IMG/VR virus record: IMGVR_UViG_3300032254_000013
Location: 1-39,734 of that record
DNA length: 39,734 nt
Source of the DNA: a virus
Lineage: Duplodnaviria > Caudoviricetes
Strand: one strand, 5' to 3'
Shown: in pieces, positions 65 through 39,310 of the stretch
Layout of the letters: each line of letters begins with the position of its first letter
Position numbering within the stretch: position 1 is the stretch's first letter
The notes under the pieces: model-generated
Told to the model about the DNA's origin: nothing
What the model saw: only the letters and a program-made list of their open reading frames with translations
Databases searched by the model: none
Made by a program: the position numbers and the translations under genes

Positions 65-110
65 TGGGGTGGCTGACGGGGCTCGAACCCGCGACGACCG
101 GAATCACAAT
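65..110 (-). mobile_element. att core: 3' half of tRNA-His(GTG), anticodon loop to CCA
   Basis: Minus strand ATTGTGATTCCGGTCGTCGCGGGTTCGAGCCCCGTCAGCCACCCCA has a GTG anticodon, a T-loop GTTCGA and a GCCACCCCA end. The sequence beyond 110 cannot form the anticodon stem or D arm, so this is a fragment, as is typical of tRNA-targeting phage att sites. Confidence 0.88.
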
Positions 111-129
111 ACACTCTAGAACACTTTAA

Positions 130-218
130 AATCAATGAGTTAACCTTGTTTTTCGTAACGTTTTAGGTTGTTTTCGGTCTATATAAAACAATAGCTTACG
201 TTATAACGTTACGAAAAA
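130..218. promoter_or_regulatory. att arm region: IHF-consensus site and 14-bp inverted repeat (candidate Int arm or Xis sites)
   Basis: AATCAATGAGTTA (130-142) fits WATCAANNNNTTR. TTTTTCGTAACGTT (149-162) and AACGTTACGAAAAA (205-218) are perfect inverted repeats. Confidence 0.55.
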
Positions 219-632: not shown

Positions 633-1376
633 ATGCCAGAAGCTCAAGAAAAAAATCTCTCCGAAGATCTAACGTCTAGAATTGGATCTCTTCCTGATGA
701 CAGGAGTTTGGCAGAATTACTTGTCAAAAGAATTCAAAGTGATATCGAAATACATTTAGCTGATGATGCTGCAGATGCTTATGGCCTTTCTGGTTTGTTA
801 GCAACATATTTGCGTGATGAAAAAAGCATGCACTCTTTTTATAAGAAAGCGCTAAAAATTGAGCCAGAGAATGCTGTCTTAAACCACAATTATTCCACTA
901 ATTCATTTGCATTTGGGTTGATAGACAACGCCATCCAATATGCAAAGAAAACTCACGGCATATTAAAAGATGACAGAGATGCTGTTGAGTTTTTATTCCA
1001 GGCTATGTTTTTTACGTTAAGAGTTAAAGAGGCCTCAGAATTGTCTGAGCAAATAATAAAGCATAATATTGAAAAATATTTACCTACCTTAAATTTTGCT
1101 CAAGATATTCAAAATATGTTTTCAAGATCTGATATTTCAGCTGATGAAGCTCAGGATTTCTTGAAAATCGCCTACGATTTAATGCGAGCTAAAAAACTAA
1201 CAGCAACAGCAAGAAGACTCCACCCCTGCGGAAATAATTCAATTAGTTATAAAATACAACTTGGTGTAGATGTTGAACAAGTTGTTGATATGAATATTCT
1301 ACTTGCTGAAAAATTCGCATCTCATGAAAACGCTTCGAAAATCAGCACGATTTTAAATGTGGCTTATTCTATTTAG
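633..1376 (+). CDS. TPR-like helical repeat protein (cargo gene)
   Basis: TPR-like segments (FYKKALKIEPENAVLNHNY, AIQYAKK); AT-rich; opposite strand to the late operon. Confidence 0.6.
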   Translation: MPEAQEKNLSEDLTSRIGSLPDDRSLAELLVKRIQSDIEIHLADDAADAYGLSGLLATYLRDEKSMHSFYKKALKIEPENAVLNHNYSTNSFAFGLIDNAIQYAKKTHGILKDDRDAVEFLFQAMFFTLRVKEASELSEQIIKHNIEKYLPTLNFAQDIQNMFSRSDISADEAQDFLKIAYDLMRAKKLTATARRLHPCGNNSISYKIQLGVDVEQVVDMNILLAEKFASHENASKISTILNVAYSI

Positions 1377-1390
1377 GAAGATTCATCTAT

Positions 1391-1765
1391 ATGCCAGTTA
1401 CCCCTTTGAAGTTTCTTGAATTTTCTGAAGGTTTACTTGAGTCAAAAGAAGAAATAAATATTCGAAACGCAATGAGTCGCTCTTATTACGCCTCATACCA
1501 CGCAGGGCAACCTATCGGTAAGAAGTTTGCTTTGTATGCGGATGTGGAAGGTGGTTCTCACGCTCAGTTCATTTCTAGATTCACAGAACATAGTGATGTT
1601 TCTGTTAGGAAGGTTGGGTTTGTATTACGATCATGCTTAAGCGACAGAAGGATTGCTGATTATGAGCTGGACATGGATTTATCAATCGATGATGCCCTGC
1701 TCGCTATATCTCAAAATAAAAGAGTTATTGGTCTTCTTTCTGAATTAGATGAAAAATACCCGTAG
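1391..1765 (+). CDS. HEPN-domain protein
   Basis: RNAMSRSYYASYH helix, GGSH and C-terminal RRIADY motifs are typical of small HEPN proteins. Confidence 0.75.
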   Translation: MPVTPLKFLEFSEGLLESKEEINIRNAMSRSYYASYHAGQPIGKKFALYADVEGGSHAQFISRFTEHSDVSVRKVGFVLRSCLSDRRIADYELDMDLSIDDALLAISQNKRVIGLLSELDEKYP

Positions 1766-8000: not shown

Positions 8001-11000
8001 CGCTCATTATCTTCTTTAGAAAAATGCTTGTAGCTTTCTTTACGTTCTGCTTTTTCTTTTTTTGTGCGGTTAACCTCAAGATTTTTAGCCGCTTTTACAA
8101 CCAATGCATCAAGTTCTGATTTTGACCATTTAAGGTTGATACCTAGCTTACGTAAAAACTTACGAAGCAACTCAACGACCTTGGTTAACAAAGGAGAACT
8201 AACACCCTTTTCTGCCACTAAAGCAACAATCTCTTTGGCTTCAGTAGTTTTATCCAATTTTCCATAACGCTGAAATACTTCATCTGATATTTCAGTAAGC
8301 TTTTTGTCACCTGAACGCTTTAACCATTGAACGCGTTCGAGGACTTGATCTAAGTCATCCCCCATCATTTGTTCAAAAGAATGGTGGCCAACAGCTTCGT
8401 GTGCCAGGCGACTTAAAATATGGTCCTTGTCTTTTAATTTATCAGCAACCAAATAAATTTGCTCTTCTGCACCGTAATGCACGGCACTTACTTTTTCCAT
8501 GCCATGCGCTTCTGCATCAAGAATATGCTCAGGAATTTCAGAGATGCTTTGAACGACCTCAACCTTAGGTGATTTGTCGCCCCACTTTAAAATAACCGGT
8601 GCAATAATTTTTTCTACTTCAGAAACAGAAAACCCGCTAGAAGCGGGTTTGTCTTTTGAATAAAGTATATCTTTTAGTCCGGGAAGTCGTCGTGAATCCT
8701 GTAACTGGCGGCTAAGGTAAGCCAGTATTCCTCGCCGTTCAGCTCCACTTTTCGCTTGTAAAAAGGTAGATGTGAGAGCGCCTCTTTTAAGCGTTGCGAT
8801 TCCTGCTCGACCGCTTTTTGCCGGTGCGGATTTGGCGAGTGTGTCAAACTGTAATCGATCAACTCGTCTACCGTTGTGAACGAAGGCATTTTCTGAGAAG
8901 TCATAAGTAATATCCTTAATCAATGGAACTGCTTCTGTGATATTAGTATAGCTTCTTTCCATCAATCTGACCATGTTGCCTTCATGATCACCCTGAATCC
9001 AGTCAATTTTTTGCTTAGGATGGGGTCTTAAATGCTTGGTCGTACCGAATTTCAATGCGGAAGAAAGCATATTTTCAGTGCGTCTAAAATAAGCATCTTC
9101 TGATAAACCATCCCGATCACCAATAAACACTTTGCCATTATTGTGTGCAAAGGTAGATACAATATTATAAATAGCCGTACCACGGCCACTGCCAGACTTT
9201 AGGCGAGCAACATTTAATTCAATGGTTCCGTCAGTGTTTTCACGCACAAAGGCCACTGATTTATCTGGCATTACTAAGCGCCACTCATGTTTTAAGCCAG
9301 CTCGCTTTATGCCGTAGTCATAATTCTCTACCTGAATATCAGGACTTATTTCAGCCGTAATTTCTTTTATGGTTTTAGCATTAGACTTAGGCTGCTGAAA
9401 CATTTCGTCGTCCATAACAAACTGCTTCCACAGCTCGACTACTTCTTTATCAACTTTTGGTTCTGCTTTTTCTTTAGAGAATAAAGCTGTTCCATTTTTA
9501 GTTTCCTTTGTTTGGAAAACTTCAAATAGGTCTTTGAATTTACCATTAATGGCTTCACGCTCCTTACCTTCTGGGTAAGGCTTCACATTAAACATTTTGT
9601 ATTCTGGTAAGTCGTTATGTTTTTCGTAAGAAAGGAAATCATTACGCGCATCAATGGTTTTAAGTTTGTCATAGATATATGACTCAAAAGCACGAGCCAT
9701 TAATTCATGCTGAGTACTCCAATAGTTTGCACGAGATCCTTTGTCCATAAAGTAAGCTTCTGAATAAAACTCACTTGCAACCTTTCTTGTTTTTACTTTT
9801 TGTTTTTGGGCTTCAGCTAAATATTCGGCTGCGGTTTTTTCGGAACTAATGGCAGCTTGAATATTAACAATAACACCCTGTAACCGGCCTTGGGCTTTTG
9901 AGTAACCTTGGCGACCACGCGTTGTTTTATATAAATCAGAGAGTTTTTTTACTGATTCGAACAGGTGAATACCGCCATAACCTTTGCCTTGAACCCATTG
10001 CTCGGTACCGTATTCACCTGCTTTAATATCCGCAATAATTTTATCCGCTTCTTTTAGCTGTTCTTTAGTGGCTGGTGCATTATTCTTTTTACCACGATAT
10101 GGCTGGTAACTTTCACCAGTATAGTCAGTCTCTAAATCTGTACGGAATTTATCAAGCCGTTTATGCAAGTCTTCTTTACGACCATTTTCAAAACGTTCAC
10201 GAGAACTAACGTCTTCTTTATATTCTTGAGTACGTTTAGTAATTGTATCCATCACGCTATCAAATGCATTCTTTAGCTCTTCACGTGTTTTATCTTGGTA
10301 GCCAAAACCATGAGAGACAAAATTGCCTGAAGGTGATTTACTAGCATCAAAGACTTTATCGCCATTACTTTTAGTGATTCTTTCTGCTTTTGCTTTGCCA
10401 CCTTCTCGACCAAGGTAATGGTCTAATGCATGCATCCACTCATGAGCAAGACTGCCAGCACCTTTAATCTTGGTTAAGTTAATAACACCGTAATTCATTT
10501 CGTAATGCGCTTTTGCACCTGTAAGCCCGTGGCCACGAGAGCCAAAGCCAACACCCAAATCACCATTAAGAGAAATAGCCTTTGGTGGCACATTTAACAT
10601 TTCTGCTAAATCTAAAAAAGCATCATACGCCTGGTTTAAAATATGCTGGCGCTCTTCAGAGTTATTCCACTTACCAAACTCAACGCCACGGAAACCAAAT
10701 ATCTCATTGAAGTCATCTGCGCCTACATTAGCATCGTCTTCTCGACGTGCTTCACCACTGCGAATAGCTTCTTTTAATGCTGGGTGAATAGAATCATCGA
10801 AACGTGTTTTTGTTTCAATAATGTCAACGGCATTCTTGGCCATGTATTCCATGGCTTCTTCACGACTTTCAAAACCACCCTTAACAACTGGGCGCTTACG
10901 GTCTGTGACTATACGAACAATTTCATACTCGCCTTTTTTGTCGGCAGACTGAACACGGTGGTTACGAGAAACTTCATGCAAAGGAATGGCTTCTTCTGCT

Positions 11001-13630
11001 TCTTCTCGCGTATTAAAATAACGTTTTTTATAATTTGAACGAAGGTGTTCACTTTTACGTTTATCGTAAACCGTAAACTTACCTTTGTTACCTGTGTCTG
11101 ATAGTTCGCCATTAACCGCTGTTTCCATTAACGATGCTTCGGCTGCAACCTCACTAACATCATATCGACGTTGCCAACCTTTACGGGGGTCTTTAACTGT
11201 GCGACCTGCCCCCGTACCTTTGCGCGATGTATCTTTACGCGCACCGCCAAGCTTTTCACCAAAGTCTTGGATTTTAGAATCTTTATTGTTGGTATCAGGC
11301 GCAGCACTTTCCCGACTGGACGCAACACCAGTATCACTCGGTTCCGATGTGCCGAGGGCTTGGCTTTCAGCTACGGGTAAAGTGCTGCTTTCTTCCTGAT
11401 TGTTTTGCTCTCTAAGTTTTTGCGTTGCCCATGACATTAAGGCCACATATCCGCGTTCTGTACCTTCGAGGTGTTCAATTTTACCAGGCAAGTCTTTGCC
11501 TAGTGCATCAGCGAGCTCTTCCCACGTTTTACCAATTGTTTTTTCACCAGTTTGGCCATTGAAGGCAATAACACTGCCCGGCTCCCAACCAGAAAGAGAG
11601 TTTAAGTTTTTTTCAAACTTAGTTTTCATTTTATTATTTAAGTTTGGATATACGTCAACCCAGAATTCTTTTGACACTGACTCTGGTGAAGCGCCTTCTT
11701 CCTCCAAATTAAATAGAATATCTTGCCCTTGCTCTTCCATTAAAATGCGTTTTGCTGTTTTATCTAAAAACGATTCGAACTTATCTTTATTTTTATTACC
11801 CGATGTTCTCTCATTTGGTAACGAGGATGATTCAAAATCCAAATTGTCCTGCTTAGCAATTTTGTGTACTGCGTTAGTTTCTTTTTCTTTATCATTTTTA
11901 TTAACATCATGCCCAAACTCAACGGCCCATTTTTTCACCTGGGTGGATTTGTTATAAGCTTCTCGATCGCCCGATTCTTCGCTATAGGCAACTTCATCAG
12001 CCAGCGCTTTAATGTCACTTAGCTTCGTATTTAATTCTTCAGTGTTTTCATACCCGTTTTGCTGTAACTCAGATTGCAGTTTCAGTAATTCAGGGAGCTT
12101 AGACGGCTTCTGCTGTATTTCTGGTTCTTTCTGTTCTGTATTTTGCCGTACTACGGCAGTTTCGGCAGGTTTTGCCATTTCTTCTGGCTTGCTTGTCTCG
12201 TTATCTTGCTTAGTTTGTTTCTGCTGCTTAAAGAGCTCGACAACATTTGACGCCATGTTGTTATTTGCATACGGGCTTTGTTGTTGTGGTTGCTTAACGG
12301 AAGCTTTTAAAATATTCGCAATTTGTTCTGCTGGGGATTCATCAACTTTTGATACAGGTTTATCAGATTTCTGATTATCGATAGACTTATTATCGTTGCT
12401 TGAAGTGTTACCGCCTAATGCGCCACCCACAATTGAGCCAATTAATGCTGACTTACCTACGCCTTCATCCCAATCTTTACCGGTAGCAACATTGCTAATA
12501 GCTTGTTGAGGCGCTTCTTGTAAAACACCTTCATTAACCGCAGAAAGAGAACGACGAGCAGCTTGGCCACCGTTTTCATTAAACAAACCATACTTGTTAG
12601 TGACAGAAACTAACGCTGCATTTTGCCAAAAAACATTATCCGCTTTTTGTGCTGCTTCTTTGTGACTTAAACCTTGATCTCGTAGTTCAGTATAAACCGC
12701 GCCAGATTCAGTTGCCGCTTCCATTCCAGCTGAAGCACCCGAACCTAACCATGCCGCCATACGCGGTGAAACTTTAGAGACAGCTTGAGCCCCCTTCATT
12801 ATTCCTAAGCCGGGAACAAAGAATGTTCCTGTTGAACCAAAGCCAGCCGCTAACTCATCAAGAAACTTTGGATCTGCAGCCATTAATTCGCGTGCTTTAC
12901 CAGACATAATATCTTGAGCAACCCGCATGCCATTACTGTCTGTCATGCGAGAAACAAAACCCAACATACCTTCTGCAGTAGAAACACCACCTGAAGCAAC
13001 ATCTTTTAAGCCGCGAGTTAACACCCCTTCAGCTGGTCCAGCACTTTCAATGTACTCTCTTCCTGTTGTTCCTTTAGGTGCATTCATTTCACCAATTGCT
13101 TTGACATTATCAACCGCATTACTCTCAGGCGTTACATCACCACGAGCACCAAACATACCTTCTAATGCTGTTCGTAATTCTGATTTAGGTTCGCTTGGAT
13201 ACATACCACCAGGCTTTCTTTTGCCTGGAGCAATCGCGTCATAATTTTCAATAAACTGATTTTCACGCCAACCCGGTTCAGCAATATCACGAAGAACATC
13301 TTCATTACCGCTTATGGTGGGAAATTGATCGCCTGTTTTAACTTCGGTACCGAGAACGTTTAACGTTTCGGGTTCTGGTGGTCGCTGATAGTCAACAACA
13401 CTTTGCTTGTTATCTACTAATGGATTTTGTATGCCTTGATTAACGACACCCTGAAACGCATTAACAATTTCATTAGCTGCATCTGATGCTGGAGCCTCAT
13501 AGCCAATGCTTTTACTAAACTCACCGTAATCTAAATCTGAGTAGTATTTATTATAAATACCGCGCGATAGTGACTCATCATCCATATCATCGTATTGCGG
13601 ATTTTTCTGGCGAAATTCAGTTAAGAGCAT
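5045..13630 (-). CDS. Large polyvalent virion or ejection protein (LPD1/zincin-like peptidase motifs, PLxRFG domain)
   Basis: 2861 aa; DFGEKLGGARKD, FGFRGVEFGKW, LAHEWMHALD (HExxH), YWS...ELMARAFE, second LAHEAVGH, YFPLARFG; last gene of the internal-virion cluster. Confidence 0.8.
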   Translation of the reverse strand: MLLTEFRQKNPQYDDMDDESLSRGIYNKYYSDLDYGEFSKSIGYEAPASDAANEIVNAFQGVVNQGIQNPLVDNKQSVVDYQRPPEPETLNVLGTEVKTGDQFPTISGNEDVLRDIAEPGWRENQFIENYDAIAPGKRKPGGMYPSEPKSELRTALEGMFGARGDVTPESNAVDNVKAIGEMNAPKGTTGREYIESAGPAEGVLTRGLKDVASGGVSTAEGMLGFVSRMTDSNGMRVAQDIMSGKARELMAADPKFLDELAAGFGSTGTFFVPGLGIMKGAQAVSKVSPRMAAWLGSGASAGMEAATESGAVYTELRDQGLSHKEAAQKADNVFWQNAALVSVTNKYGLFNENGGQAARRSLSAVNEGVLQEAPQQAISNVATGKDWDEGVGKSALIGSIVGGALGGNTSSNDNKSIDNQKSDKPVSKVDESPAEQIANILKASVKQPQQQSPYANNNMASNVVELFKQQKQTKQDNETSKPEEMAKPAETAVVRQNTEQKEPEIQQKPSKLPELLKLQSELQQNGYENTEELNTKLSDIKALADEVAYSEESGDREAYNKSTQVKKWAVEFGHDVNKNDKEKETNAVHKIAKQDNLDFESSSLPNERTSGNKNKDKFESFLDKTAKRILMEEQGQDILFNLEEEGASPESVSKEFWVDVYPNLNNKMKTKFEKNLNSLSGWEPGSVIAFNGQTGEKTIGKTWEELADALGKDLPGKIEHLEGTERGYVALMSWATQKLREQNNQEESSTLPVAESQALGTSEPSDTGVASSRESAAPDTNNKDSKIQDFGEKLGGARKDTSRKGTGAGRTVKDPRKGWQRRYDVSEVAAEASLMETAVNGELSDTGNKGKFTVYDKRKSEHLRSNYKKRYFNTREEAEEAIPLHEVSRNHRVQSADKKGEYEIVRIVTDRKRPVVKGGFESREEAMEYMAKNAVDIIETKTRFDDSIHPALKEAIRSGEARREDDANVGADDFNEIFGFRGVEFGKWNNSEERQHILNQAYDAFLDLAEMLNVPPKAISLNGDLGVGFGSRGHGLTGAKAHYEMNYGVINLTKIKGAGSLAHEWMHALDHYLGREGGKAKAERITKSNGDKVFDASKSPSGNFVSHGFGYQDKTREELKNAFDSVMDTITKRTQEYKEDVSSRERFENGRKEDLHKRLDKFRTDLETDYTGESYQPYRGKKNNAPATKEQLKEADKIIADIKAGEYGTEQWVQGKGYGGIHLFESVKKLSDLYKTTRGRQGYSKAQGRLQGVIVNIQAAISSEKTAAEYLAEAQKQKVKTRKVASEFYSEAYFMDKGSRANYWSTQHELMARAFESYIYDKLKTIDARNDFLSYEKHNDLPEYKMFNVKPYPEGKEREAINGKFKDLFEVFQTKETKNGTALFSKEKAEPKVDKEVVELWKQFVMDDEMFQQPKSNAKTIKEITAEISPDIQVENYDYGIKRAGLKHEWRLVMPDKSVAFVRENTDGTIELNVARLKSGSGRGTAIYNIVSTFAHNNGKVFIGDRDGLSEDAYFRRTENMLSSALKFGTTKHLRPHPKQKIDWIQGDHEGNMVRLMERSYTNITEAVPLIKDITYDFSENAFVHNGRRVDRLQFDTLAKSAPAKSGRAGIATLKRGALTSTFLQAKSGAERRGILAYLSRQLQDSRRLPGLKDILYSKDKPASSGFSVSEVEKIIAPVILKWGDKSPKVEVVQSISEIPEHILDAEAHGMEKVSAVHYGAEEQIYLVADKLKDKDHILSRLAHEAVGHHSFEQMMGDDLDQVLERVQWLKRSGDKKLTEISDEVFQRYGKLDKTTEAKEIVALVAEKGVSSPLLTKVVELLRKFLRKLGINLKWSKSELDALVVKAAKNLEVNRTKKEKAERKESYKHFSKEDNERYFSREPNEILDDIDEEAQNVPTWDKVKRSLGNSIDHLRPGALKMLTRRHLADIGSSILPTIKTYVLTAEKMDAFRNELVAESSEIAKGWTKWATQKENVKDADAMVNTMHAATIAGVDPAEPYSSIINLGAAKEDIAKQFRFAKSMPGEAGKYIEKVNEIRERVAFEKNREKAYPELKRQWDKLPPKAQEIYKEVRDHYVQRMDQTQQALMDKIDRAELSAKEKEQYKAEMRAQFESVRIEGPYFPLARFGDYWAKVLIPTEWQKKYSIRNKGFTAKDSEQGKWAVMLKETRNAIETFDSKEEAIKWAVEKSTDYEFYMFEKKGHRDNLVKKKENEGLKVKTGHKIDKNRQDAAVSEGFIANVLKVVDKLNLQSNSTHDEIYQLFLNTLPDVSMRKSFIHRQKKEGFTPDALRAFSHHNFHGAYQLSKLKFADVMQTQLENMEEQARDMTGDKADKAAQILNETKKRHDWAMNPMGAGWANNVTQFNFVWYLGATPAAAIVNMTQTAMVAFPSMGAKFGFTKAGKELLNASREFMGNRIEVKDGLFSIEGALKGDELKAYQWLVDTGIIDKTLAHDLAAMSETPSAIYSPKKDKVMGAVSYAFHHAERFNREVTSIATYRLARKKGLSHAVAMQEAYDMVDATHFNYSNANKAAFMQNDIAKVAFIFKQYSLNMIYLLARSTYQSVKGESAAVKKEARRKLGGILFMSYLFVGYNGMPWLPFGVIDLILEMIWDDEDEPFDIEAERRNNFTELLGSTWADVLAIGPVEALTGVGFSDRLALDSLWFRPSGRDLEAKEELQYQALSMLGPTLGILDSAARGVGLMKEGKVYRGIETMLPKSAKDVMKAVRIADEGATTLKGDPIVQDINAFEAFMQFIGFSVGRVNKQYDARSTIKNAENRIKDRRKLLMNKFATSINNGDAAWQKEILKEMAKFSKKNPTNAITVDSIERSLKMRARTSAMTKNGVYLRKNMQHLRNKGRFADE

Positions 13631-24665: not shown

Positions 24666-26609
24666 TTAATCGATATCTCTTATAACTTTGTTTGATGTAA
24701 CTTGTTCTAACCAACCAAAGGTGCCTACCTTGGGTCCTTCTTCTTTGTGTTCAACACTTAACACCTTGTGACGTGAGCGCAATGAGTACATTGTTTCATC
24801 CCAGCAATTTGAGACCAACACACCATTACTTAAAGCAAAAGCATGCGTCACAGGAACGGACATGCAATAAACGTTAGCTTTTCCTGCTGGCTCGACACTT
24901 ACGACCCGCAGTGGCCGCACAGTTTCTTGAGCAATACATGGCACGCTTTTGTTGCGCTTTAGTCGTAAAATAATCCGAACCGTATTGAACACATTGTTTT
25001 TTAATCGAGCGCTCGGTATGCACTTTCCCCAAAAACTCTTGGATGGTATTTGAAATAACATTAATGTCGATTGTTCTTTCAAGTCCTTCGCTTCTATCCA
25101 ACAATTTTCACCACCTACAAATTTATGATCCGGGGTACAAACAACTTCTGATCCATCTTCAAAAGTCACTTTTACAACATTGGCGTATCTTGTTTTTCTA
25201 CAATTAAGAAATTTTCTATATCCATCAGCTGAAGCAATTAGTCCAGACTTACCAACAAGTTCTTTAATGGCAACCATACCATTACTTGTCATAACTTCTG
25301 TATCACCAACAAAGCAATGGTCCTCCATTTCAGTATCCACATCTTCCCAATTGCTTGAGTTAGGCATGAGCACTGGCACGGTTCTTAACCAATGTGTGCA
25401 AGTATCAAAAACAAAGAACTTGTTTTCAGTTAACGCGTTAATAATTAACTGTGCACCAATAATTCTTGAGCCGGGACCTTTCTTTGATTTAATCCAACGC
25501 ACCTTTTGGTTTTTAAATAAATCATAAATACTTAGCTCATTACCAACATCAGCCCACATAGCGCTATCAGCTGGATTTTTTAAGAAACGAATACCTGCTT
25601 TACGTTCTTTGGCTTCAATCTTAAATATTGCTTTAGCAACTGCTGTGGCATTTTCTCGCGTACCCGTATTAGGTTTACCACCATAACCATACAACTCACG
25701 GTAACGATAAATTTCACCTTCAGGGCTCATGCAATACCAACCGATTGAATACGGTTTAGCTGAACCCCAATCCATTGCTCTCCATCGAGGCCAGTCAACT
25801 GGAATCTTAAACGGTGAAACTTTATGAATCTTGTTATCCCAAATGCCTTGTAAGAATCCACCTACAACGATATCCCAGTCACCATAGCGCCATGCTTTCT
25901 TCAGCTCAGGGTTTTTAATACCTTCAAGCTGCTTAACGTATTCGGGATCGTTTTCAAATATTGCAGGGTTATCATCAAGACTAACGTTAATTCTTACACG
26001 TACATTGCCTTGCTCATCTTGAGCAACCGTACCTTCGGGACCAAGATCAATAAAACGTTCTTTAACCCAGTTGTGTCCAGCACCGAATGGATTGCCCGTT
26101 GAAACATAAAACTTGGGAACACCAGGTATCGAACAACGGCTACACGATTTCATAACCTCGTAGCATTCATCCGTTGGCCAGTTAGTTAGCTCTTCCCAGC
26201 CAATGAACGGTAATTCGTGACCGTGAAAACTCCAATAAGCATCCACGTCTTTCATGACGCGGAATAACAATTCCTCGCCATCCGGAAAGACCCACTTATA
26301 ATCACCCTTCGATGCTAACCAACGAGCGCCGGGGAATAACTGAGGGATCCAACGTTTTGATTTTTTAATAATGTCATCGAGGTGCTTATACTCTCGACGA
26401 AATATAACGCCGGTCCATGCAGCACCAAAACCTAAACCCACATACCGCAGGTACTTCATCAGTAATGTGTCGGTTTTGCCCCCACCACGATTACCTTCTG
26501 CAAATATTTCTTTTATCGGGCAGGTTAAGAATTTAGTTTGTCCACCTGGGTAAGGTGTCCAAACAATCTTTAATTCTGATTCTGTTGAGGGAAGTGTTGC
26601 TTCTGCCAT
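24666..26609 (-). CDS. terL: Terminase large subunit containing an intein
   Basis: Walker A GNRGGGKT, Walker B IGWEEL, TGNP coupling motif, RNase H-like nuclease AMDWG and final EDH|CWD split by the intein. Confidence 0.92.
   Translation of the reverse strand: MAEATLPSTESELKIVWTPYPGGQTKFLTCPIKEIFAEGNRGGGKTDTLLMKYLRYVGLGFGAAWTGVIFRREYKHLDDIIKKSKRWIPQLFPGARWLASKGDYKWVFPDGEELLFRVMKDVDAYWSFHGHELPFIGWEELTNWPTDECYEVMKSCSRCSIPGVPKFYVSTGNPFGAGHNWVKERFIDLGPEGTVAQDEQGNVRVRINVSLDDNPAIFENDPEYVKQLEGIKNPELKKAWRYGDWDIVVGGFLQGIWDNKIHKVSPFKIPVDWPRWRAMDWGSAKPYSIGWYCMSPEGEIYRYRELYGYGGKPNTGTRENATAVAKAIFKIEAKERKAGIRFLKNPADSAMWADVGNELSIYDLFKNQKVRWIKSKKGPGSRIIGAQLIINALTENKFFVFDTCTHWLRTVPVLMPNSSNWEDVDTEMEDHCFVGDTEVMTSNGMVAIKELVGKSGLIASADGYRKFLNCRKTRYANVVKVTFEDGSEVVCTPDHKFVGGENCWIEAKDLKEQSTLMLFQIPSKSFWGKCIPSARLKNNVFNTVRIILRLKRNKSVPCIAQETVRPLRVVSVEPAGKANVYCMSVPVTHAFALSNGVLVSNCWDETMYSLRSRHKVLSVEHKEEGPKVGTFGWLEQVTSNKVIRDID
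24807..25316 (-). other. 170-aa mini-intein in TerL (Cys432-Asn601)
   Basis: Block A CFVGDTEV, block B VCTPDHKF, block F VYCMSV, block G NGVLVSN followed by Cys+1. Confidence 0.9.
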
Positions 26610-33170: not shown

Positions 33171-33213
33171 ATAAACAAAATGTTTGCATTACCATAAACG
33201 TTATGTTTATACT
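33171..33213 (+). promoter_or_regulatory. OL operators and PL promoter
   Basis: ATAAACAAAATGTTTGC (33171-33187) and ATAAACGTTATGTTTAT (33194-33210, exact reverse complement of the OR site at 31770); TTGCAT-N18-TATACT. Confidence 0.78.
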
Positions 33214-33244
33214 TTCCTCAAGTTATCGAATTGAGGGAATAACA

Positions 33245-33421
33245 ATGAATATCAAAAACCACGTCGAGCACCGAATAGCGGCTCAAAAGCCAGCAAATCG
33301 CCAGCGATTGAATTTATATACGCAGCGCCGTGAAATCTACCTTCGTCATCTTGGCGAAGGCTGCAAAGTATCCTTTCCCCTTGTACTAGCCTTATCCGAG
33401 GTACGCCGTTGTGTCTCGTAA
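33245..33421 (+). CDS. First early-left hypothetical protein
   Basis: GAGGG RBS before ATG 33245; basic. Confidence 0.5.
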   Translation: MNIKNHVEHRIAAQKPANRQRLNLYTQRREIYLRHLGEGCKVSFPLVLALSEVRRCVS

Positions 33422-33728
33422 AGCATTAAAAATCATAAAACCATGGACAATTATTGAAGAGCAAGAACTTACGCAGCTTCGTGATGAAGGCTACCGCGTA
33501 AAAGATATTGCTCAAATGCTTGGGCGCGGCGTTGATTCGGTGTACGACAAAATTTACAACCTCAGAAATATTTCTCCATTGAAACTGAAAAATATTAACG
33601 CAGTGCCCCGCGACTGCCTTAAATGTCACAAAAGTTTCCGTTCGTCTGGTCCGGGTAATCGAATATGTAATACGTGCAGCAAAACCAACGCAACCCAGTG
33701 CGACATTCAATATGCGGTGGGTCGATAG
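33411..33728 (+). CDS. HTH plus zinc-ribbon protein
   Basis: WT..EEQEL...GYRVKDIAQMLGR HTH; CLKCHKSFRS.GPGNRICNTC. Confidence 0.65.
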   Translation: MSRKALKIIKPWTIIEEQELTQLRDEGYRVKDIAQMLGRGVDSVYDKIYNLRNISPLKLKNINAVPRDCLKCHKSFRSSGPGNRICNTCSKTNATQCDIQYAVGR

Positions 33729-34045
33729 TGGTTGAATCTACCCATGATACCCGTACTACGGCTAACCAAGCCAAGAACGCGGTTAAGTGTGACCAATGTG
33801 GCAAGGAGTATGAAAAGAACCACCCTAATCAGCGTTTTTGCAATGACAAATGCAAAGCCAAATGGCACAGAGTCAAACCGTTGGGCAGTGGTGTTCAGGT
33901 AACCAATACCGGTTCACGCAACCTAAAAAGTCATATTGAAGTAAAGCTAATTGTGAGTTACGCCAATCGTGAAAAATTAGCCAAGATTTTATTACCGGGT
34001 GCTGATTTGTATCTGGCAAGAACAACGGAGGATTTATTCGAATGA
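33728..34045 (+). CDS. Zinc-finger protein
   Basis: CDQCGKEY...QRFCNDKC; coupled GTG start. Confidence 0.55.
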   Translation: MVESTHDTRTTANQAKNAVKCDQCGKEYEKNHPNQRFCNDKCKAKWHRVKPLGSGVQVTNTGSRNLKSHIEVKLIVSYANREKLAKILLPGADLYLARTTEDLFE

Positions 34046-34236
34046 AATTCTTTAAAAAAATCATTTGTTACTTTAAAGGGCATGACTTTGGTGCTGCTGT
34101 TTATATCTCTCCTTCAATGTTGGTGTATTGCCGCACTTGCGGAGTTGAAATACAAGACAGAACTATTGAAGACCTCGAACCAATGACAGACGAAGACTAT
34201 GAACATCTTGAATTAATGGAGCAGCTATCAGAATGA
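34042..34236 (+). CDS. Small Zn-binding phage protein (CxxxGH...CxxC)
   Basis: ICYFKGHDF...CRTCG; GGAG RBS, ATGA coupling. Confidence 0.6.
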   Translation: MKFFKKIICYFKGHDFGAAVYISPSMLVYCRTCGVEIQDRTIEDLEPMTDEDYEHLELMEQLSE

Positions 34237-34610
34237 ATGCACAACAACACAAAATAACCGACTTCGAGCGCGATATTTTAAAGTGGCTTGCTGAAGGTGA
34301 AAAAACACGCTCAGCTGAAACAATCGCCCTCACCCTTTTAGGTGTTCCCCGCAGAGATATTTTTAAAAATAACTTTTGCATTTATGCACCACGCAATGCG
34401 CACGACTTTCGCACAAGTTACATCATGGTGGCAGCGGTACCAGGTGCACGTGAACAGCTCGACAAACTTAAAAAGCTTGGCCGTGTATGGACCAACGTTA
34501 TTACCAACTGGGACAAATTAGTAAAGCTTTATAAAGAAGAATGTCTTCAAGGCAAACAACCAAAACTTGAAGCCTTGTTACGTGACTTAAATGAAAGAGC
34601 GGTGGTTTAG
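34233..34610 (+). CDS. Phage hypothetical protein, paralogue of cassette gene 36392-36727
   Basis: ATGA coupling; shared IL.W...G....S..T.A...G.P, P....DF and W...I..WD pattern. Confidence 0.65.
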   Translation: MNAQQHKITDFERDILKWLAEGEKTRSAETIALTLLGVPRRDIFKNNFCIYAPRNAHDFRTSYIMVAAVPGAREQLDKLKKLGRVWTNVITNWDKLVKLYKEECLQGKQPKLEALLRDLNERAVV

Positions 34611-34781
34611 ATGTTTAAGACTTTCTTTAAATGGATATCGAGTTTGTTTGAGGTAAAGCTACCGCCTGCTAACAGGTGCACCGTATGCAAAATAACAGCT
34701 TCAACAACGTGCTTACCATTTTGCGGTTCAAAACGATTTTGTAGAGCTTGTGCAACAAAAATAATGAGTGGAATAGAATGA
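34611..34781 (+). CDS. Small Cys-rich protein, 56 aa (not in ORF track)
   Basis: Hand translation MFKTFFKW...CTVC...FCRAC...IE*; abuts the previous stop and is coupled to the next ATG. Confidence 0.55.
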   Translation: MFKTFFKWISSLFEVKLPPANRCTVCKITASTTCLPFCGSKRFCRACATKIMSGIE

Positions 34782-35080
34782 CTAAAAATGAAAACAACGT
34801 AATTCAACTAAATGCTCCAGTTGCTTGCCACTGTGCGTCATGGCCGGTATCACACCAAGACCGGACAGGTGCACATCATCACTCAGTTTGTTCGCATTAC
34901 AAATCAGATAAGTACCCTTACCTCTTCGCATGGCATGAAGAAGATGAAGCTTGGTATCTGGTACCAATGGATTTCTTACAGTTCATCGCTGAGGGTTTAG
35001 AAGACCAACAAGCGCAAACAATTAAATTTATGCGTACCGATTTAACCGATGAAGAAATATTTAACGAGTGTGGATTATGA
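34778..35080 (+). CDS. Hypothetical protein
   Basis: ATGA-coupled start; CHC...HHHSVC motif. Confidence 0.55.
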   Translation: MTKNENNVIQLNAPVACHCASWPVSHQDRTGAHHHSVCSHYKSDKYPYLFAWHEEDEAWYLVPMDFLQFIAEGLEDQQAQTIKFMRTDLTDEEIFNECGL

Positions 35081-35247
35081 GTGAGCAAGAAACATTAAAA
35101 CAAGCACTCGAAACACCCTGCCCTTTTTGTGGCTGTACAGATTTAACTAAAAACCTATGGTCATTCAATAGCGGTGAAGTTGATGCCGTTGAATGCAACC
35201 AATGCTGCGCAGGTGCACCTGCTCACTCATGGGTTAGACGTAAATGA
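35077..35247 (+). CDS. Lar-like (restriction alleviation) zinc-ribbon protein, 56 aa (not in ORF track)
   Basis: Hand translation MSEQETLKQALETPCPFCG...VECNQCCAGAPAHSWVRRK; PCPFCG...CxxC..W is the Lar-family pattern. Confidence 0.6.
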   Translation: MSEQETLKQALETPCPFCGCTDLTKNLWSFNSGEVDAVECNQCCAGAPAHSWVRRK

Positions 35248-35450
35248 TAACTGAATGCGCAACTCGAAAAAAATGTGACCAGGCGCTGCGCAAGTTTGGT
35301 GGTGTTGGAATATTTGAAGGTGATGTTTGGTTAGCTTGTCATGCAGGTGAAGAAACACGTTATCGAAGTAATGAACATATTGATAATTTAAAAGACTGTG
35401 ATTGGTTAGAACCAACACCAATAAGCAAAGGTCAAATGGGATTAATATGA
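35244..35450 (+). CDS. Hypothetical protein
   Basis: ATGA coupling upstream; overlaps the MTase start. Confidence 0.5.
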   Translation: MITECATRKKCDQALRKFGGVGIFEGDVWLACHAGEETRYRSNEHIDNLKDCDWLEPTPISKGQMGLI

Positions 35451-36328
35451 TTGCAGTAAACAGTTACTTCTCAGGTGGTGGTCTTCTTGATATTGGTTTG
35501 ATGCAAGCTGGCTTGCAAATACATCAATCATTTGAGCTTGATAAAATTGCTTGTGAAGTACAAAAACACAACTTAGGTAATCATGTAATTCAAAGTGACT
35601 TAACAAAAAAACTCGTTAGTAATGATAACAATGCAGATGTGATGGCATTTACCTATCCATGCACAAAATATTCCCCTATTGCTAACATTCAAGGCAGTCG
35701 AACCGGTGATGAATTATTCCTTCATGCATTAAGACATATAGTAATCAAAAAACCTGAGGCTTACACGATAGAGAATGTACCCGGTATGAGAGCTTTTCCG
35801 GTAGTAATGGAGGCAATGACCAGGCTACCTGATTACTATATACAAGTATTTTGCCCTATTCAGTCAGAAATATGGCTACCTCAAAAAAGAGATAGATTAA
35901 TTATTATTGGCACTAAAAAGAATTTTAATTTTCGCCCACCAAAAAAGACAAAACAAATAAAGCTTCGTGAAATTCTTGAAAAAGATCCTCAAATAAAAGT
36001 GCCAAAATATGTATTAGACAGAATGAAAGGACGTTACCGAGATTTACCCATTATTTCCGATCCAGATAATAATGATTTAGCTCCAACGTGTGTAGCCCAT
36101 TACTCTAAAGATAAAAGCACTCGTTTAGTAAAAGATAAAAATTTCCCAATGAATGTTAGGCCATACACTGTCAGGGAGTATGCAAGACTCCAGGGAGTAC
36201 CAGATTGGTATGAGTTTAATTGCTCTGATTCAGCAGCTTACAAAATAATTGGTAACGGTGTCAGTGTACATGCAGGACAGTGGTTAGGTTTTGAATTAAA
36301 GAGATATTTTAATTTAGGTAAAAAATGA
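35447..36328 (+). CDS. Orphan DNA (cytosine-5) methyltransferase
   Basis: Motif I FSGGG, IV YPC, VI ENV, VIII QKRDR, IX REYARLQG, X IGNGV. Confidence 0.92.
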   Translation: MIAVNSYFSGGGLLDIGLMQAGLQIHQSFELDKIACEVQKHNLGNHVIQSDLTKKLVSNDNNADVMAFTYPCTKYSPIANIQGSRTGDELFLHALRHIVIKKPEAYTIENVPGMRAFPVVMEAMTRLPDYYIQVFCPIQSEIWLPQKRDRLIIIGTKKNFNFRPPKKTKQIKLREILEKDPQIKVPKYVLDRMKGRYRDLPIISDPDNNDLAPTCVAHYSKDKSTRLVKDKNFPMNVRPYTVREYARLQGVPDWYEFNCSDSAAYKIIGNGVSVHAGQWLGFELKRYFNLGKK

Positions 36329-36374
36329 ACTTGCTGCCCACAATGCAGTTTGCCATTGGAATTAATTGTTAGCA
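36324..36374 (-). repeat. Degenerate distal attC-like site (attC0)
   Basis: Minus strand TGCTAAC-AATTA-ATTCCAAT has a normal R''/L'' arm, but only a short CAATG/CATTG stem and a weak GTTCATT on the other side. Confidence 0.5.
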
Positions 36375-36391
36375 CTTTTTTGGAGAGAGGC

Positions 36392-36727
36392 ATGAAAAAC
36401 AAAATACTTGAATGGTTTGCAAACGGGCAGGTTGGCTCAAGCTCAAAAACGATGGCTTGCGCTGCCGCCGGATTACCCCAAGATAGATTTGGTGGTAGCC
36501 ATCCATACGACCCTGCCGATTTTAATAGATGCTTATTGCTTTTAGAAAAAGCACCAGAAATACGTAAACATTTTAATAAGGTTTCTGATGTTTCAGAAAC
36601 ATGGAAAAAATTAATAGATCGATGGGATGAAGTTGAGAAGACGTTTATAGATGAAGTTGGTTACAACTGGAGCAAATGTGATAGTGCACCAAAGACCTAT
36701 GAATTGATGAAGTCTATAGGGTGCTAA
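36392..36727 (+). CDS. Cassette A gene: phage hypothetical protein
   Basis: GGAGAGAGG RBS; HPYDPADFNRC motif; TAA stop within the TAAC core. Confidence 0.8.
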   Translation: MKNKILEWFANGQVGSSSKTMACAAAGLPQDRFGGSHPYDPADFNRCLLLLEKAPEIRKHFNKVSDVSETWKKLIDRWDEVEKTFIDEVGYNWSKCDSAPKTYELMKSIGC

Positions 36728-36794
36728 CGATGAAGTTAATTTGCAAGAAAGGAGCGCAGCGGAATGATTGTCAAAATTAAACGCCTTGTTATCT
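36722..36794 (-). repeat. attC1 (73 bp)
   Basis: Minus strand TAAC-AAGGC-GTTTAATT...AATTAAC-TTCATC-GTTA; one extra base in L''. Confidence 0.85.
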
Positions 36795-37057
36795 TTTTGC
36801 ATTGCTGGTGGTTCGGGCATGAGCCTGATTACAGTGGACAAGTATTTGATAGTGACCCTGATAACTATGGCTGGCAAAACACACCATGCAAGTGTTGTGG
36901 CTTATGGGATATTCCATATCACGAACTTGTAGAAGGTAGCCGACACTATAAAGTAAAACAGTTCTTTCGATACTGGCTATACAAAAGATGGTGGCCTGAG
37001 AAGTGCATTGACTGCAGCAAGCGTTACGGTAAGCACAATAGCTGCATACCATTTTGA
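36764..37057 (+). CDS. Cassette B gene: Cys/His-rich protein starting inside attC1
   Basis: AAGGAG in the attC loop; CWWFGH, CKCCG, CIDC. Confidence 0.7.
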   Translation: MIVKIKRLVIFLHCWWFGHEPDYSGQVFDSDPDNYGWQNTPCKCCGLWDIPYHELVEGSRHYKVKQFFRYWLYKRWWPEKCIDCSKRYGKHNSCIPF

Positions 37058-37058
37058 A

Positions 37059-37121
37059 AGATAACGGCCTAAATAACGTGCCGGAGCGCAGCGTAGGTCG
37101 CTGTTGATTTTATTGTTATAT
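37059..37121 (-). repeat. attC2 (63 bp)
   Basis: Minus strand TAAC-AATAA-AATCAACA...CGTTATT-TAGGCC-GTTA; extrahelical C. Confidence 0.88.
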
Positions 37122-37134
37122 TTTGGAGTTTATT

Positions 37135-37323
37135 ATGGATACATCAACAAATTGTCAGAAGTGCGGTAAGACCACAGAGGTATATTGCTCTCGTTGGTGT
37201 GAAGCATGTTATTACCCTGGTATCGATCAAGATTATGAAGAATATCAGGCAATGCTGGATGAAGGTCATAGACCAGCAGTAGCTGCTGTACAGTCTGGGT
37301 GGAAAGGTATTGAAGAAATATAA
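37135..37323 (+). CDS. Cassette C gene: small CxxC...CxxC protein
   Basis: GGAG RBS; CQKCG...CEAC; TAA in the core. Confidence 0.7.
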   Translation: MDTSTNCQKCGKTTEVYCSRWCEACYYPGIDQDYEEYQAMLDEGHRPAVAAVQSGWKGIEEI

Positions 37324-37389
37324 CGCTGGAGCTATGCGGCTATGAATGAATCGCAGCGTAACGAAATCCGAACGAGCGTATTGTTATGA
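37318..37389 (-). repeat. attC3 (72 bp)
   Basis: Minus strand TAAC-AATAC-GCTCGTTC...GCATAGC-TCCAGC-GTTA; L pairing imperfect. Confidence 0.8.
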
Positions 37390-37616
37390 GCGAATTTAAT
37401 GTTGAACAGGCAATGGAAAACGAAAAGCTAAAGAACGAACTTAGCTTGCAGCACACACATTATTTCTTGAACCTGTATAAGTTTGGGGATTCTCCATTCT
37501 GGTCGATGCACACAAACTATCAAGTTGCAGTGAATGATGCCGAACAGAATAAACGATATGGTAATAAAGCCTTGCATATTGGTATTCCGATACCGAGAGA
37601 AATGTTTGGCTCATAA
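37386..37616 (+). CDS. Cassette D gene: hypothetical protein
   Basis: ATG within GTTATG, TAA within TAAC. Confidence 0.7.
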   Translation: MSEFNVEQAMENEKLKNELSLQHTHYFLNLYKFGDSPFWSMHTNYQVAVNDAEQNKRYGNKALHIGIPIPREMFGS

Positions 37617-37700
37617 CGAATTTTAATAAGAGGCGCGACACAATGAAAACAGAGAAGAGAACCAACGCTTTCAAGCGTCCTTTTGATTTGTTTGTTATGT
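37611..37700 (-). repeat. attC4 (90 bp)
   Basis: Minus strand TAAC-AAACA-AATCAAAAGGACGC...GCGCCTCTTATT-AAAATTC-GTTA; same family as attC5. Confidence 0.82.
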
Positions 37701-37924
37701 GGTTTAAATTCAGAAAACATCCTTGTTACCGAGGTGCTGGCGAGTTTGAACATGATCTTGAAGTGGTTGATGATTCCTTTGACCATGAATTTGGAACTGA
37801 GGTTATTCAATATATGCAATGTGAAACATGCGGGGCAACTCATGATGAGGACGCAACTGTGCCGGAAAGCCCACAAGGTTTTTGGGATGACAGTAGTGAA
37901 GATTTCTACGAGTTGCACACATAA
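37643..37924 (+). CDS. Cassette E gene: acidic Zn-ribbon protein (alternative start 37697)
   Basis: VDDSFDHEFGTE...CETCG; starts inside attC4. Confidence 0.7.
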   Translation: MKTEKRTNAFKRPFDLFVMWFKFRKHPCYRGAGEFEHDLEVVDDSFDHEFGTEVIQYMQCETCGATHDEDATVPESPQGFWDDSSEDFYELHT

Positions 37925-38007
37925 CGATTTTAATAAGGGGCGCGACATGACCAACCTAGAGAAAAACGCCGATGCTTCCGAGCGCCCGCTTGATTTACTT
38001 GTTATGC
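37919..38007 (-). repeat. attC5 (89 bp)
   Basis: Minus strand TAAC-AAGTA-AATCAAGCGGGCGC...GCGCCCCTTATT-AAAATC-GTTA. Confidence 0.86.
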
Positions 38008-38318
38008 GTATTTTGCAACTGACATTAAAAAAGCAATGGTTTGATTTGATTGCCAGCGGTGAGAAGAAATTTGAATACCGCGAATATAAAAAGCACTGGA
38101 TGTCTCGCTTGCTCTGTAAGCAGGGTATTCGTAATTATGATGAAGTTCGCTTTACCAATGGCTATGGGAAAGATAAGCCGTTTATCCGTGTTGAGTTCAA
38201 AGGTGCGGCGATTATTAAAGGTGCGCATTGCTCTCCAGATAATGGCGAGCCACTGAACCAAGAACAAAAGTATTTTGTTATCGGCCTCGGTAAAGTGTTA
38301 GAGGTTGGGAACGCATAA
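37947..38318 (+). CDS. Cassette F gene: ASCH/PUA-domain protein (alternative start 38004)
   Basis: L.LTLKKQWFDLIASGEKKFEYRE and F.NGY are ASCH-type motifs. Confidence 0.8.
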   Translation: MTNLEKNADASERPLDLLVMRILQLTLKKQWFDLIASGEKKFEYREYKKHWMSRLLCKQGIRNYDEVRFTNGYGKDKPFIRVEFKGAAIIKGAHCSPDNGEPLNQEQKYFVIGLGKVLEVGNA

Positions 38319-38385
38319 CGGCTGAACTCACTTGCGCTGAAAGAGCACAGCGAGTGAAGCGTCAAAGTGGAGTGAATTGTTATGT
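38313..38385 (-). repeat. attC6 (73 bp)
   Basis: Minus strand TAAC-AATTC-ACTCCACT...AGTGAGT-TCAGCC-GTTA; extrahelical C. Confidence 0.9.
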
Positions 38386-38633
38386 TTTGCTGTGGAAAAG
38401 AAAGAGACGGTAAGTTTTGCTCAGAATGTGGAGCAGAGTTTATTGCGGATACCACTAAGAGAAACTTGGCTGATTATTTAGACAGGCAAGCGAAGACTGT
38501 AAAAAAGAACATTGATAACAGACTAAAAATTAAACCAGACATGGACGAGAGCACAATAAAAAAGTGGAACCAAAAAATTAAAAAATGGGAAGAATGGAGG
38601 GACTGGGTTCTCTCTGTTGAACCAGAAACATAA
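38382..38633 (+). CDS. Cassette G gene: zinc-ribbon plus coiled-coil protein
   Basis: CCG...KFCSECG; ATG in GTTATG, TAA in TAAC. Confidence 0.72.
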   Translation: MFCCGKERDGKFCSECGAEFIADTTKRNLADYLDRQAKTVKKNIDNRLKIKPDMDESTIKKWNQKIKKWEEWRDWVLSVEPET

Positions 38634-38699
38634 CGGCGCTGCTCAGTTGTTGCGACTGAGCGTAGCGAAAGAGCAATCAACTGGAGTGAATTGTTATGT
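38628..38699 (-). repeat. attC7 (72 bp)
   Basis: Minus strand TAAC-AATTC-ACTCCAGTTGATTGC...GCAACAACTGAGC-AGCGCC-GTTA; extrahelical C and A as in canonical attC. Confidence 0.9.
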
Positions 38700-38971
38700 G
38701 GGAATTTAGTGCAGAAACAAAACCAACAGCACGTAAGGATTACCATTGCGAGGCATCAGACTGGATTATAAATACAGTTGGATTGGACGAGCGAGAATTT
38801 GAGCCAGAGGATTGGGCGAAAATTGAAGAAGCAAGAAAAAATGGATTTAAGATTTTAAAGGGTGAGAAATATATAAATGTATCTGGGAAGTGGGAAGGTG
38901 AGTTTTCTACTTTCCGCGCAATACCAGAGCTTAATGATATTTGTATTAAGTACGATCTTTATTGTGATTGA
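38696..38971 (+). CDS. Cassette H gene: phage hypothetical protein
   Basis: ARKDYHC...ILKGEKY motif; ATG in GTTATG. Confidence 0.72.
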   Translation: MWEFSAETKPTARKDYHCEASDWIINTVGLDEREFEPEDWAKIEEARKNGFKILKGEKYINVSGKWEGEFSTFRAIPELNDICIKYDLYCD

Positions 38972-38973
38972 GC

Positions 38974-38995
38974 ACATAACAACAGAATATGCGGA
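38974..38995 (-). repeat. Proximal half site, candidate attI-like site
   Basis: Minus strand CCGCATAT-TCTGTT-GTTATGT has a core site but no partner arm to form a hairpin. Confidence 0.5.
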
Positions 38996-39007
38996 GTGTG
39001 CAAGGTA

Positions 39008-39310
39008 ATGTTTAGAAAGCGTACAAAATATAGCGAGAAATTAAAGGTTATGCGAAAAGCCAAAGAACGCAAACGGCTTGAAGGTGATGCGCCCGACTAT
39101 CCTATAATGCTGCCAGAGATTCGCCGCCGCATAATTATTATTGACTATGATTTTGGTGAAGTAATGCACGAAATAGTTTTAAAAAAATCAAGCCGTGTTG
39201 ACTGTTACCAGGCAGTTATCGACGGCAAGGTTTGGAGAGAAAGAATTGGCTGGTCAAAAATTTTAGAAGCCGTCCGCAAAAGTTTTATACGAGTAGGTAC
39301 GGTATGCTAA
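39008..39310 (+). CDS. Basic hypothetical protein between array and xis
   Basis: GGAG upstream; stop overlaps the xis start. Confidence 0.65.
   Translation: MFRKRTKYSEKLKVMRKAKERKRLEGDAPDYPIMLPEIRRRIIIIDYDFGEVMHEIVLKKSSRVDCYQAVIDGKVWRERIGWSKILEAVRKSFIRVGTVC

What the first reader, a model, noticed from the sequence alone, without database searches (positions are those of the whole stretch)
34042..37057. Cassette cargo mirrors non-cassette phage genes: possible conversion of phage genes into cassettes
Seen: backbone ORF 34233-34610 (ILKWLAEG...SAETIA...GVP...APRNAHDF...VWTNVITNWDKL) aligns by eye with cassette A (ILEWFANG...SSKTMA...GLP...HPYDPADF...TWKKLIDRWDEV). Backbone 34042-34236 (ICYFKGHD) shares the CxxxGH...CxxCG pattern with cassette B (HCWWFGHE). 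The other cargo (ASCH, Zn ribbons) is typical early-phage material rather than resistance or toxin-antitoxin genes. How cassettes are created is an open question, and the same family present with and without attC is a useful test case.
Basis: partly seen in the sequence, partly recalled or inferred. Interest (0 to 1): 0.7.

Follow-up and report, generated by a model that had tools for sequence, protein, structure and literature searches.

The report
Phage gene family toggling cassette state
This temperate phage carries two distant copies of one phage protein family, one as an ordinary gene and one packaged as a backward-facing integron cassette, and relatives show that the family has repeatedly switched between the two states, likely in both directions, which makes it a test case for how cassettes are made.

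Summary
Pair A is real: 34233-34610 and cassette A share 26% over 89 aa and both hit PHROG 1229. Pair B is not significant (117 of 2000 shuffles score as high). The backbone copy is not cassette A's source: it lies in its own long-branched clade with no DNA likeness, while cassette A has 55-70% identical relatives elsewhere. The array is eight cassettes (36330-38979) whose genes run opposite to their attC sites, ending at an attI-like dock followed by a conserved 100-aa gene. The scan reported inverted arrays with such docks before on other DNA; phage attC clusters are published. New here: in 185 family rows from other loci, 17 are cassette-type, all inverted; on a 57-row tree the state changes 10 times and one origin is rejected. 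A 95% identical pair with and without the upstream attC points to loss; two cassettes with different 12-bp terminal repeats beside attC-free sisters point to fresh gain. No IntI was found in 22 viral records, so a host integrase is inferred. Three cassette-type relatives lie in bacterial-type or ICE-like arrays. Verdict: family-level traffic supported, in-genome conversion not.

The parts
34042..34236 (+). Backbone ORF, 64 aa, C-x3-GH...CxxC pattern; not a demonstrable homologue of cassette B; absent at this position in relative L186
34233..34610 (+). Backbone PHROG 1229 gene, 125 aa, start overlaps the upstream stop, no attC; orthologues P0131-P0134 at 70-72%, the one with DNA in hand (L186) also attC-free
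35077..35247 (+). Backbone Lar-like zinc ribbon, no attC; 48% identical to an attC-headed ORF in the inverted array of L085 (second family seen in both states)
35447..36328 (+). C5 DNA methyltransferase; its stop overlaps the left crossover of the array
36324..36374 (-). Decayed attC (s0) of cassette A: R'' box, 5-nt spacer and L'' box intact, body shortened to 51 bp, R' side degenerate; not called by the scanner
36392..36727 (+). Cassette A gene, PHROG 1229, 111 aa, confident all-helical model (pLDDT 96) without a solved relative; 8-bp terminal inverted repeat
36722..36794 (-). attC s1 (belongs to cassette B)
36764..37057 (+). Cassette B gene, 97 aa, starts inside s1; no family hit
37059..37121 (-). 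attC s2; a contig of run X1 leaves the window right after this crossover into another attC-like start
37135..37323 (+). Cassette C gene, 62 aa, cysteine-rich
37318..37389 (-). attC s3
37386..37616 (+). Cassette D gene, 76 aa; ATG inside R'', TAA inside R'
37611..37700 (-). attC s4 (74% like s5)
37643..37924 (+). Cassette E gene, 93 aa from the ATG inside s4 (75 aa from 37697)
37919..38007 (-). attC s5
37947..38318 (+). Cassette F gene, phrog_625, ASCH-like
38313..38385 (-). attC s6
38382..38633 (+). Cassette G gene, 83 aa, zinc-ribbon start
38628..38699 (-). attC s7; two differences from a site in L186 that has other genes on both sides
38696..38971 (+). Cassette H gene, phrog_13613; next to the dock, so likely the newest
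38974..39007 (-). attI-like dock; crossover between 38979 and 38980; motif conserved before 29 of 32 gene X loci
39008..39310 (+). Gene X, 100 aa, basic helix plus four-strand sheet plus helix, no Pfam/PHROG/PADLOC hit; lies where intI lies in integrons

Best explanation
The two PHROG 1229 genes are old, distant members of one phage family, one an ordinary early gene and one an inverted integron cassette, and across relatives the family has switched state repeatedly, likely by both loss and fresh gain of an upstream attC. Shown: homology, the eight-cassette array, its inverted layout, the conserved dock, the scatter of the cassette state on the tree. Inferred: a host IntI acting in trans inserts cassettes at the dock and excises them. 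Inferred for loss: deletion or replacement of the attC hairpin leaves the gene in the operon. Inferred for gain: in this layout the attC body lies upstream of the gene and a stop codon TAA followed by C reads G|TTA on the attC top strand, a ready-made secondary target, so attC x secondary-site excision would circularise attC plus gene in one step; the upstream box is then likely copied from the gene's own 3' end. Cassette A reached this phage as a finished cassette.
For: Homology. Backbone clade 100/100, stem 2.03, nearest other row 3.14 changes per site. Cassette A relatives at 55-69% share its upstream box and spacer in L085, L108, L110, L114, L152. Terminal repeats of 8-9 bp in 8 of 8 units, while 6 of 7 neighbouring box pairs mismatch. 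Orientation: scanner puts 7 of 7 sites on minus; 96 of 97 sites beside chromosomal intI point the textbook way, ORFs canonical in 44 of 47 clear chromosomal cassettes and inverted in 30 of 36 phage-type ones; a site in L141 is 95.6% identical to the attC after aac(6')-IIa but faces against the family gene. State changes 10 (bootstraps 10-11, 5 forced by starred branches); single clade rejected, p-AU 6e-54. Loss: L110/L113 95% aa identical, upstream attC in one only; box remnants in L116, L121. Gain: L141 and L159 have different 12-bp repeats that reach into Ile-Gly and Ile-Glu codons shared with attC-free sisters L176, L154, L158. IntI: 0 of 22 viral records over cut-off, present in both bacterial assemblies tested. 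Excision outside the insertion site and attC loss by slippage: bioRxiv 10.1101/2022.09.11.507474, passages.
Against: The AU test does not reject a tree joining the backbone clade with cassette A (p 0.32), so an ancient common cassette or backbone ancestor is open. The tree has 114 columns, is unrooted and cannot tell gain from loss; direction rests on flanks. L113 has only 46 nt upstream. Gain rests on few cases (L141, L159; weaker L184, L140, L003). Cassette labels were set by hand; 3 of the 18 (L107, L113, L129) have only a downstream site. Long terminal repeats are just as common in chromosomal cassettes (median 9 in both), so they are not phage-specific. No rise of decay with distance from the dock. 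Cassette-type copies in L110, L114 and L085 are not in evident phage context. No recombination was measured and the host is unknown.
Confidence: 0.6

Rival explanations
1. One-way domestication: the family was packaged once, long ago, by the unknown general route, and attC-free copies near cassette A are decayed cassettes; different terminal boxes arose by drift and selection.
For: Shared upstream box and spacer in cassettes 55-69% identical; remnants in L116, L121; L113; decayed s0 here. Box-bearing rows do not form a clade without attC-free rows (p-AU 0.0006), which needs losses.
Against: Six different box pairs, each self-complementary over 8-12 bp; L141/L159 nested in a starred clade of otherwise attC-free rows (97/89); the family occurs in 282 phage records including lambdoid ones (these were not checked for attC).
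Confidence: 0.25
2. Direct conversion in this lineage: the backbone gene was copied into a cassette and both copies were kept.
For: Both copies lie 1.8 kb apart in one operon; a joint clade is not rejected.
Against: 26% identity, no DNA likeness; cassette A has 55-70% relatives elsewhere; relative L186 has the backbone orthologue but no cassette A in the 15.7 kb read; pair B fails.
Confidence: 0.05
3. The cassettes are made in bacterial integrons from prophage-derived genes, and phages only select the rare inverted ones because these read from the phage early promoter.
For: Cassette A beside canonical ABC-3C (L110) and RhuM (L114) cassettes; inverted ORFs occur at low rate beside chromosomal intI (3 of 47 clear); attC types are shared with class 1 integrons.
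Against: 0 of 185 family rows have a canonical downstream attC; an unbiased bacterial factory should give mostly canonical copies; the family is in 2 of 401 gammaproteobacterial genomes.
Confidence: 0.1

Closest known systems
Phage CALINs (Qi et al. 2023, PMC9892861; seen: passages and section 3.4; supplements not read)
   Same: Clusters of attC sites without intI in phage genomes, carrying small ORFs and DNA methyltransferases; their sites recombine with IntI1.
   Different: In the parts read, no systematic inversion of ORFs, no conserved dock plus gene X module and no family traced with and without attC. Figures and supplements could show orientations that I did not see.
Sedentary chromosomal integrons (intI, attI, Pc, attC cassettes)
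   Same: attC anatomy (R'', 5-nt spacer, L'' with an extra base, L', 6-nt spacer, G|TT), terminal repeats, an attI-like site resembling those beside intI in L229 and L278.
   Different: No intI; genes run against attC and toward the dock; cargo is phage-type and rich in DNA modification; gene X sits at the intI position.
attG secondary sites (Loot et al., bioRxiv 10.1101/2022.09.11.507474; seen: passages)
   Same: GWT target, excision outside the insertion point and domestication by attC loss supply both steps proposed here.
   Different: Shown in E. coli with lab cassettes; creation of a cassette from a neighbouring gene is my inference. The dock is a conserved site, not a chance GWT.
Group IIC-attC intron model of cassette formation (Leon and Roy, as cited in PMC3053210; seen: passage)
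   Same: Treats gene and attC as joined independently; attC bodies here also vary freely among family members.
   Different: No intron or reverse transcriptase was noticed in the window's ORF list (not searched by profile).
PHROG 1229 (unknown function)
   Same: Both proteins hit it; relatives in lambdoid, P22-like and Vibrio phages.
   Different: The backbone copy is a divergent long-branch subfamily; function remains unassigned.

Membership tests
PHROG 1229 | Profile match over most of the protein | tested here: met
   E 2.5e-20 (backbone) and 1.6e-33 (cassette A)
Pair B as homologues | Significant alignment or shared family | tested here: not met
attC site | R''/L''/L'/R' boxes with conserved AAC and GTT and proper spacing | tested here: met
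   7 sites score 20-26, none at 20 or more in 200 kb of Markov control; weights were set after seeing these sites, then checked on chromosomal integrons
attC site | Extra-helical base in L'' marking one bottom strand | tested here: met
   C at L'' position 4 on the minus strand in 6 of 7 intact sites, T in s1
attC site | Recombined by an IntI, bottom strand preferred | not testable with these tools
   needs a recombination assay; a contig branching at the s2 crossover is indirect
Gene cassette | Own R'/R'' boxes complementary, as in an excised circle (criterion recalled) | tested here: met
   8-9 bp in 8 of 8 units
Complete integron | intI beside attI | tested here: not met
   gene X follows the dock; TIGR02249 over cut-off in 0 of 22 related viral records; the window itself was judged from its ORFs and ends inside a likely phage integrase
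Complete integron | attI site at the array head | tested here: inconclusive
   conserved motif with GTT core like the sites beside intI in L229, L278; function untested
Complete integron | ORFs co-oriented with attC, read from Pc | tested here: not met
   8 of 8 inverted; promoter scan at chance level
CALIN | Two or more attC sites, no neighbouring intI | tested here: met

The most novel reading that the evidence does not exclude
Temperate phage early regions are cassette factories: a borrowed host IntI, helped by phage gene X at the dock, excises attC plus the next phage gene at its TAAC stop, the upstream box is copied from the gene's 3' end, and the new inverted cassettes pass into bacterial integrons (L110, L114).
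Probability: 0.25. Interest if true: 0.85.

Novelty: new variant of a known kind. Interest (0 to 1): 0.55.

Why it matters
How cassettes form is named as an outstanding question (PMC8618304, passage). Most cassette genes lack close attC-free relatives; here one family has attC-free sisters at 67-76% and one pair at 95% identity, so before and after states can be compared base by base. The inverted layout gives a simple, testable route because many phage stop codons already read as an IntI target (31 of 128 family rows not ending in Gly-Cys have TAA followed by C). If true, phages both feed and drain the cassette pool.

Tried and rejected
1) That the array split the start of gene X at a chance GTT: rejected, gene X homologues are about 100 aa and start after a conserved dock. 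2) Pair B homology. 3) Rfam: 0 matches. 4) Covariance model R1 had only 6 pairs and was not used. 5) Folds: gene X no match (Foldseek none at E 0.001, best Z 3.8; atlas 0.78); cassette A only unnamed viral models, best solved Z 3.2. 6) Decayed attC around backbone genes 33200-36420: only one weak call of 15.25. 7) Decay gradient along arrays: own repeats of 7 or more in 0.84, 0.70, 0.79, 0.77 of cassettes by rank, no trend. 8) A 17-mer dock scan gave 10 unrelated hits. 9) Gene X not found in 50,697 annotated phages, in 6 records holding family A, and in 1 of 400 genomes. 10) Lar-like relatives in viral contigs: 2 weak hits. 11) No RNA holder listed. 12) No tRNA called. 13) The 156-row tree stayed at the quick method. 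Eight paper searches listed no paper on inverted phage arrays or on this family; subscription journals are mostly missing.
Full report
Setting. The window is a single virus record with terminase subunits, major head protein, endolysin and a divergent repressor pair; the large terminase holds an intein. The finding lies in the rightward early operon after the repressor, which ends in a likely excisionase and the start of a likely integrase (inferred from position and from the similar gene order in L188).

The two pairs. 34233-34610 and 36392-36727 align at 26% over 89 residues, far above 2000 shuffles, and both hit phrog_1229. Their DNA shows no likeness. 34042-34236 and 36764-37057 give E 0.046, are matched by 117 of 2000 shuffles and share no family. 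One pair stands, one falls.

The array. A rule-based scanner finds seven attC sites, all with the top strand on minus, scoring 20-26 against none at 20 in 200 kb of control. Its weights were set with these sites in view, so I checked it on 20 stretches beside chromosomal intI genes: 96 of 97 sites faced the textbook way, and ORFs were canonical in 44 of 47 clear cassettes, against inverted in 30 of 36 in phage-type arrays (all cassettes: 58 of 67 canonical, 58 of 85 inverted; the longest-ORF rule is noisy). A site in relative L141 is 95.6% identical to the attC after aac(6')-IIa of a class 1 integron yet faces against the family gene. An eighth, shortened site (36324-36374) precedes gene A. 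All eight units have perfect terminal inverted repeats of 8-9 bp, whereas 6 of 7 neighbouring box pairs mismatch, as expected of units that were once circles (criterion recalled). So cassette A is the decayed site plus gene A.

The dock and gene X. The array ends at 38979/38980 in a motif found before 29 of 32 viral loci of the next gene (two more have looser variants); 25 of 32 have inverted attC sites upstream and none downstream. A scan by the motif alone gave 40 distinct loci, 21 with gene X directly behind and 18 with an inverted attC upstream; many of the rest look like chance. The core resembles sites beside intI in L229 and L278. IntI passes its cut-off in 0 of 22 viral records (8 of them at least 90% complete) and in both bacterial assemblies tested. 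Gene X has 259 representatives at E 0.001 and no family or fold match. Relative L186 shares the backbone gene, dock and gene X but none of cassettes A-H. In the probable source run, a contig leaves the window at the s2 crossover into another attC-like start, and other contigs share only s7 or the dock; these are contigs, not independent and not linked. Earlier scan notes describe inverted arrays with docks on other DNA; I take the word dock and the attI comparison from them.

The family test. With a profile I fetched loci from three collections (best 80 of 119 viral and 80 of 180 metagenome hits, so biased toward cassette A). Of 185 rows outside the window, 17 are cassette-type (2 of 83 viral, 1 of 23 genome, 14 of 79 metagenome), all inverted, and 0 have a canonical downstream attC. 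The family also occurs in 282 of 50,697 annotated phages (not checked for attC) and 2 of 401 gammaproteobacterial genomes. On a 57-row tree (15 cassette-type rows; long-branch L063 and duplicates dropped; 37 attC-free rows chosen by hand as near relatives), the backbone copy and four orthologues form a 100/100 clade on a 2.03 stem; the cassette state changes 10 times and one clade is rejected. A tree joining the backbone clade to cassette A is not rejected (p 0.32), so only distance, not topology, excludes recent conversion.

Direction. Loss: cassette A relatives at 55-69% share its upstream box and spacer, so that cassette is old; L113, 95% identical to the intact cassette in L110, lacks the upstream attC (46 nt seen); L116 and L121 keep box remnants; box-bearing rows are interleaved with attC-free rows. 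Gain: L141 and L159 are sisters with different 12-bp repeats, inside a starred clade whose other five rows are attC-free; each upstream box mirrors codons also present in the attC-free sisters, which suggests that the box was copied from the gene end. L184, L140 and L003 carry further box types. Repeats this long are equally common in chromosomal cassettes.

Cargo and context. Phage-array ORFs hit PHROGs more often than chromosomal cassette ORFs (21 of 67 against 8 of 57) and include 8 DNA-modification genes against 0. The Lar-like backbone gene 35077-35247 has a 48% identical attC-headed relative in L085. Against a phage-only picture, cassette A also lies beside canonical ABC-3C or RhuM cassettes (L110, L114) and in an ICE-like region (L085).

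Mechanism. Inferred: host IntI loads cassettes at the dock; inverted ones are kept because the early promoter at the far end reads them; attC deletion turns them into ordinary genes; attC x secondary-site excision at a TAAC stop makes new ones. The GWT target, outside excision and slippage loss are reported in bioRxiv 10.1101/2022.09.11.507474 (passages); bottom-strand preference in PMC5371416 (passages); extra-helical bases in PMC3053210 (passages). Phage CALINs are published (PMC9892861, passages and section 3.4; supplements unread). PMC2761259 and PMC13323075 (passages) added nothing. Score 0.55: the platform has been seen before, the strong reading fails, but the family gives a concrete two-way test set.

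Noticed in passing
window 39008-39310: Conserved 100-aa gene X directly behind the attI-like dock in 29 of 32 viral loci, at the position of intI; no family or fold match.
   Followed up: partly
window 37065-37066, 38625-38681, 38976-39008 (run X1): Contigs of the same run branch at attC and dock crossovers; several phages share s7 and the dock with different neighbours.
   Followed up: partly
window 37643 and 37947: ORFs E and F can start inside their attC sites, so the hairpin encodes an N-terminal leader; s4 and s5 are 74% alike.
   Followed up: no
window 24666-26609: Large terminase with an intein.
   Followed up: no
window 60-215: Stretch resembling a tRNA 3' part (by eye; ARAGORN calls none) and a 62-bp inverted repeat at 153-214; possible attachment region.
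   Followed up: no
window 633-1765: Two-gene unit on the plus strand (247 and 124 aa) that looks by eye like a TPR plus HEPN pair; no Pfam hit at E 1e-4.
   Followed up: no
window 5045-13630: 2861-aa protein with LPD1, LPD37 and LPD39 domains.
   Followed up: no
L110 287-4394: Three-gene ABC-3C defence unit as a canonical cassette next to an inverted cassette A and an attI-like end.
   Followed up: partly
L123 1100-1520; L154, L158, L176: Family A genes flanked by short direct repeats instead of attC sites, possibly another module system.
   Followed up: no
L142 600-1019: SieB-like ORF in canonical orientation within an otherwise inverted array.
   Followed up: no
L186 6300-7900: The closest relative carries what looks by eye like a serine recombinase after gene X, where the window has a likely excisionase and integrase.
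   Followed up: no
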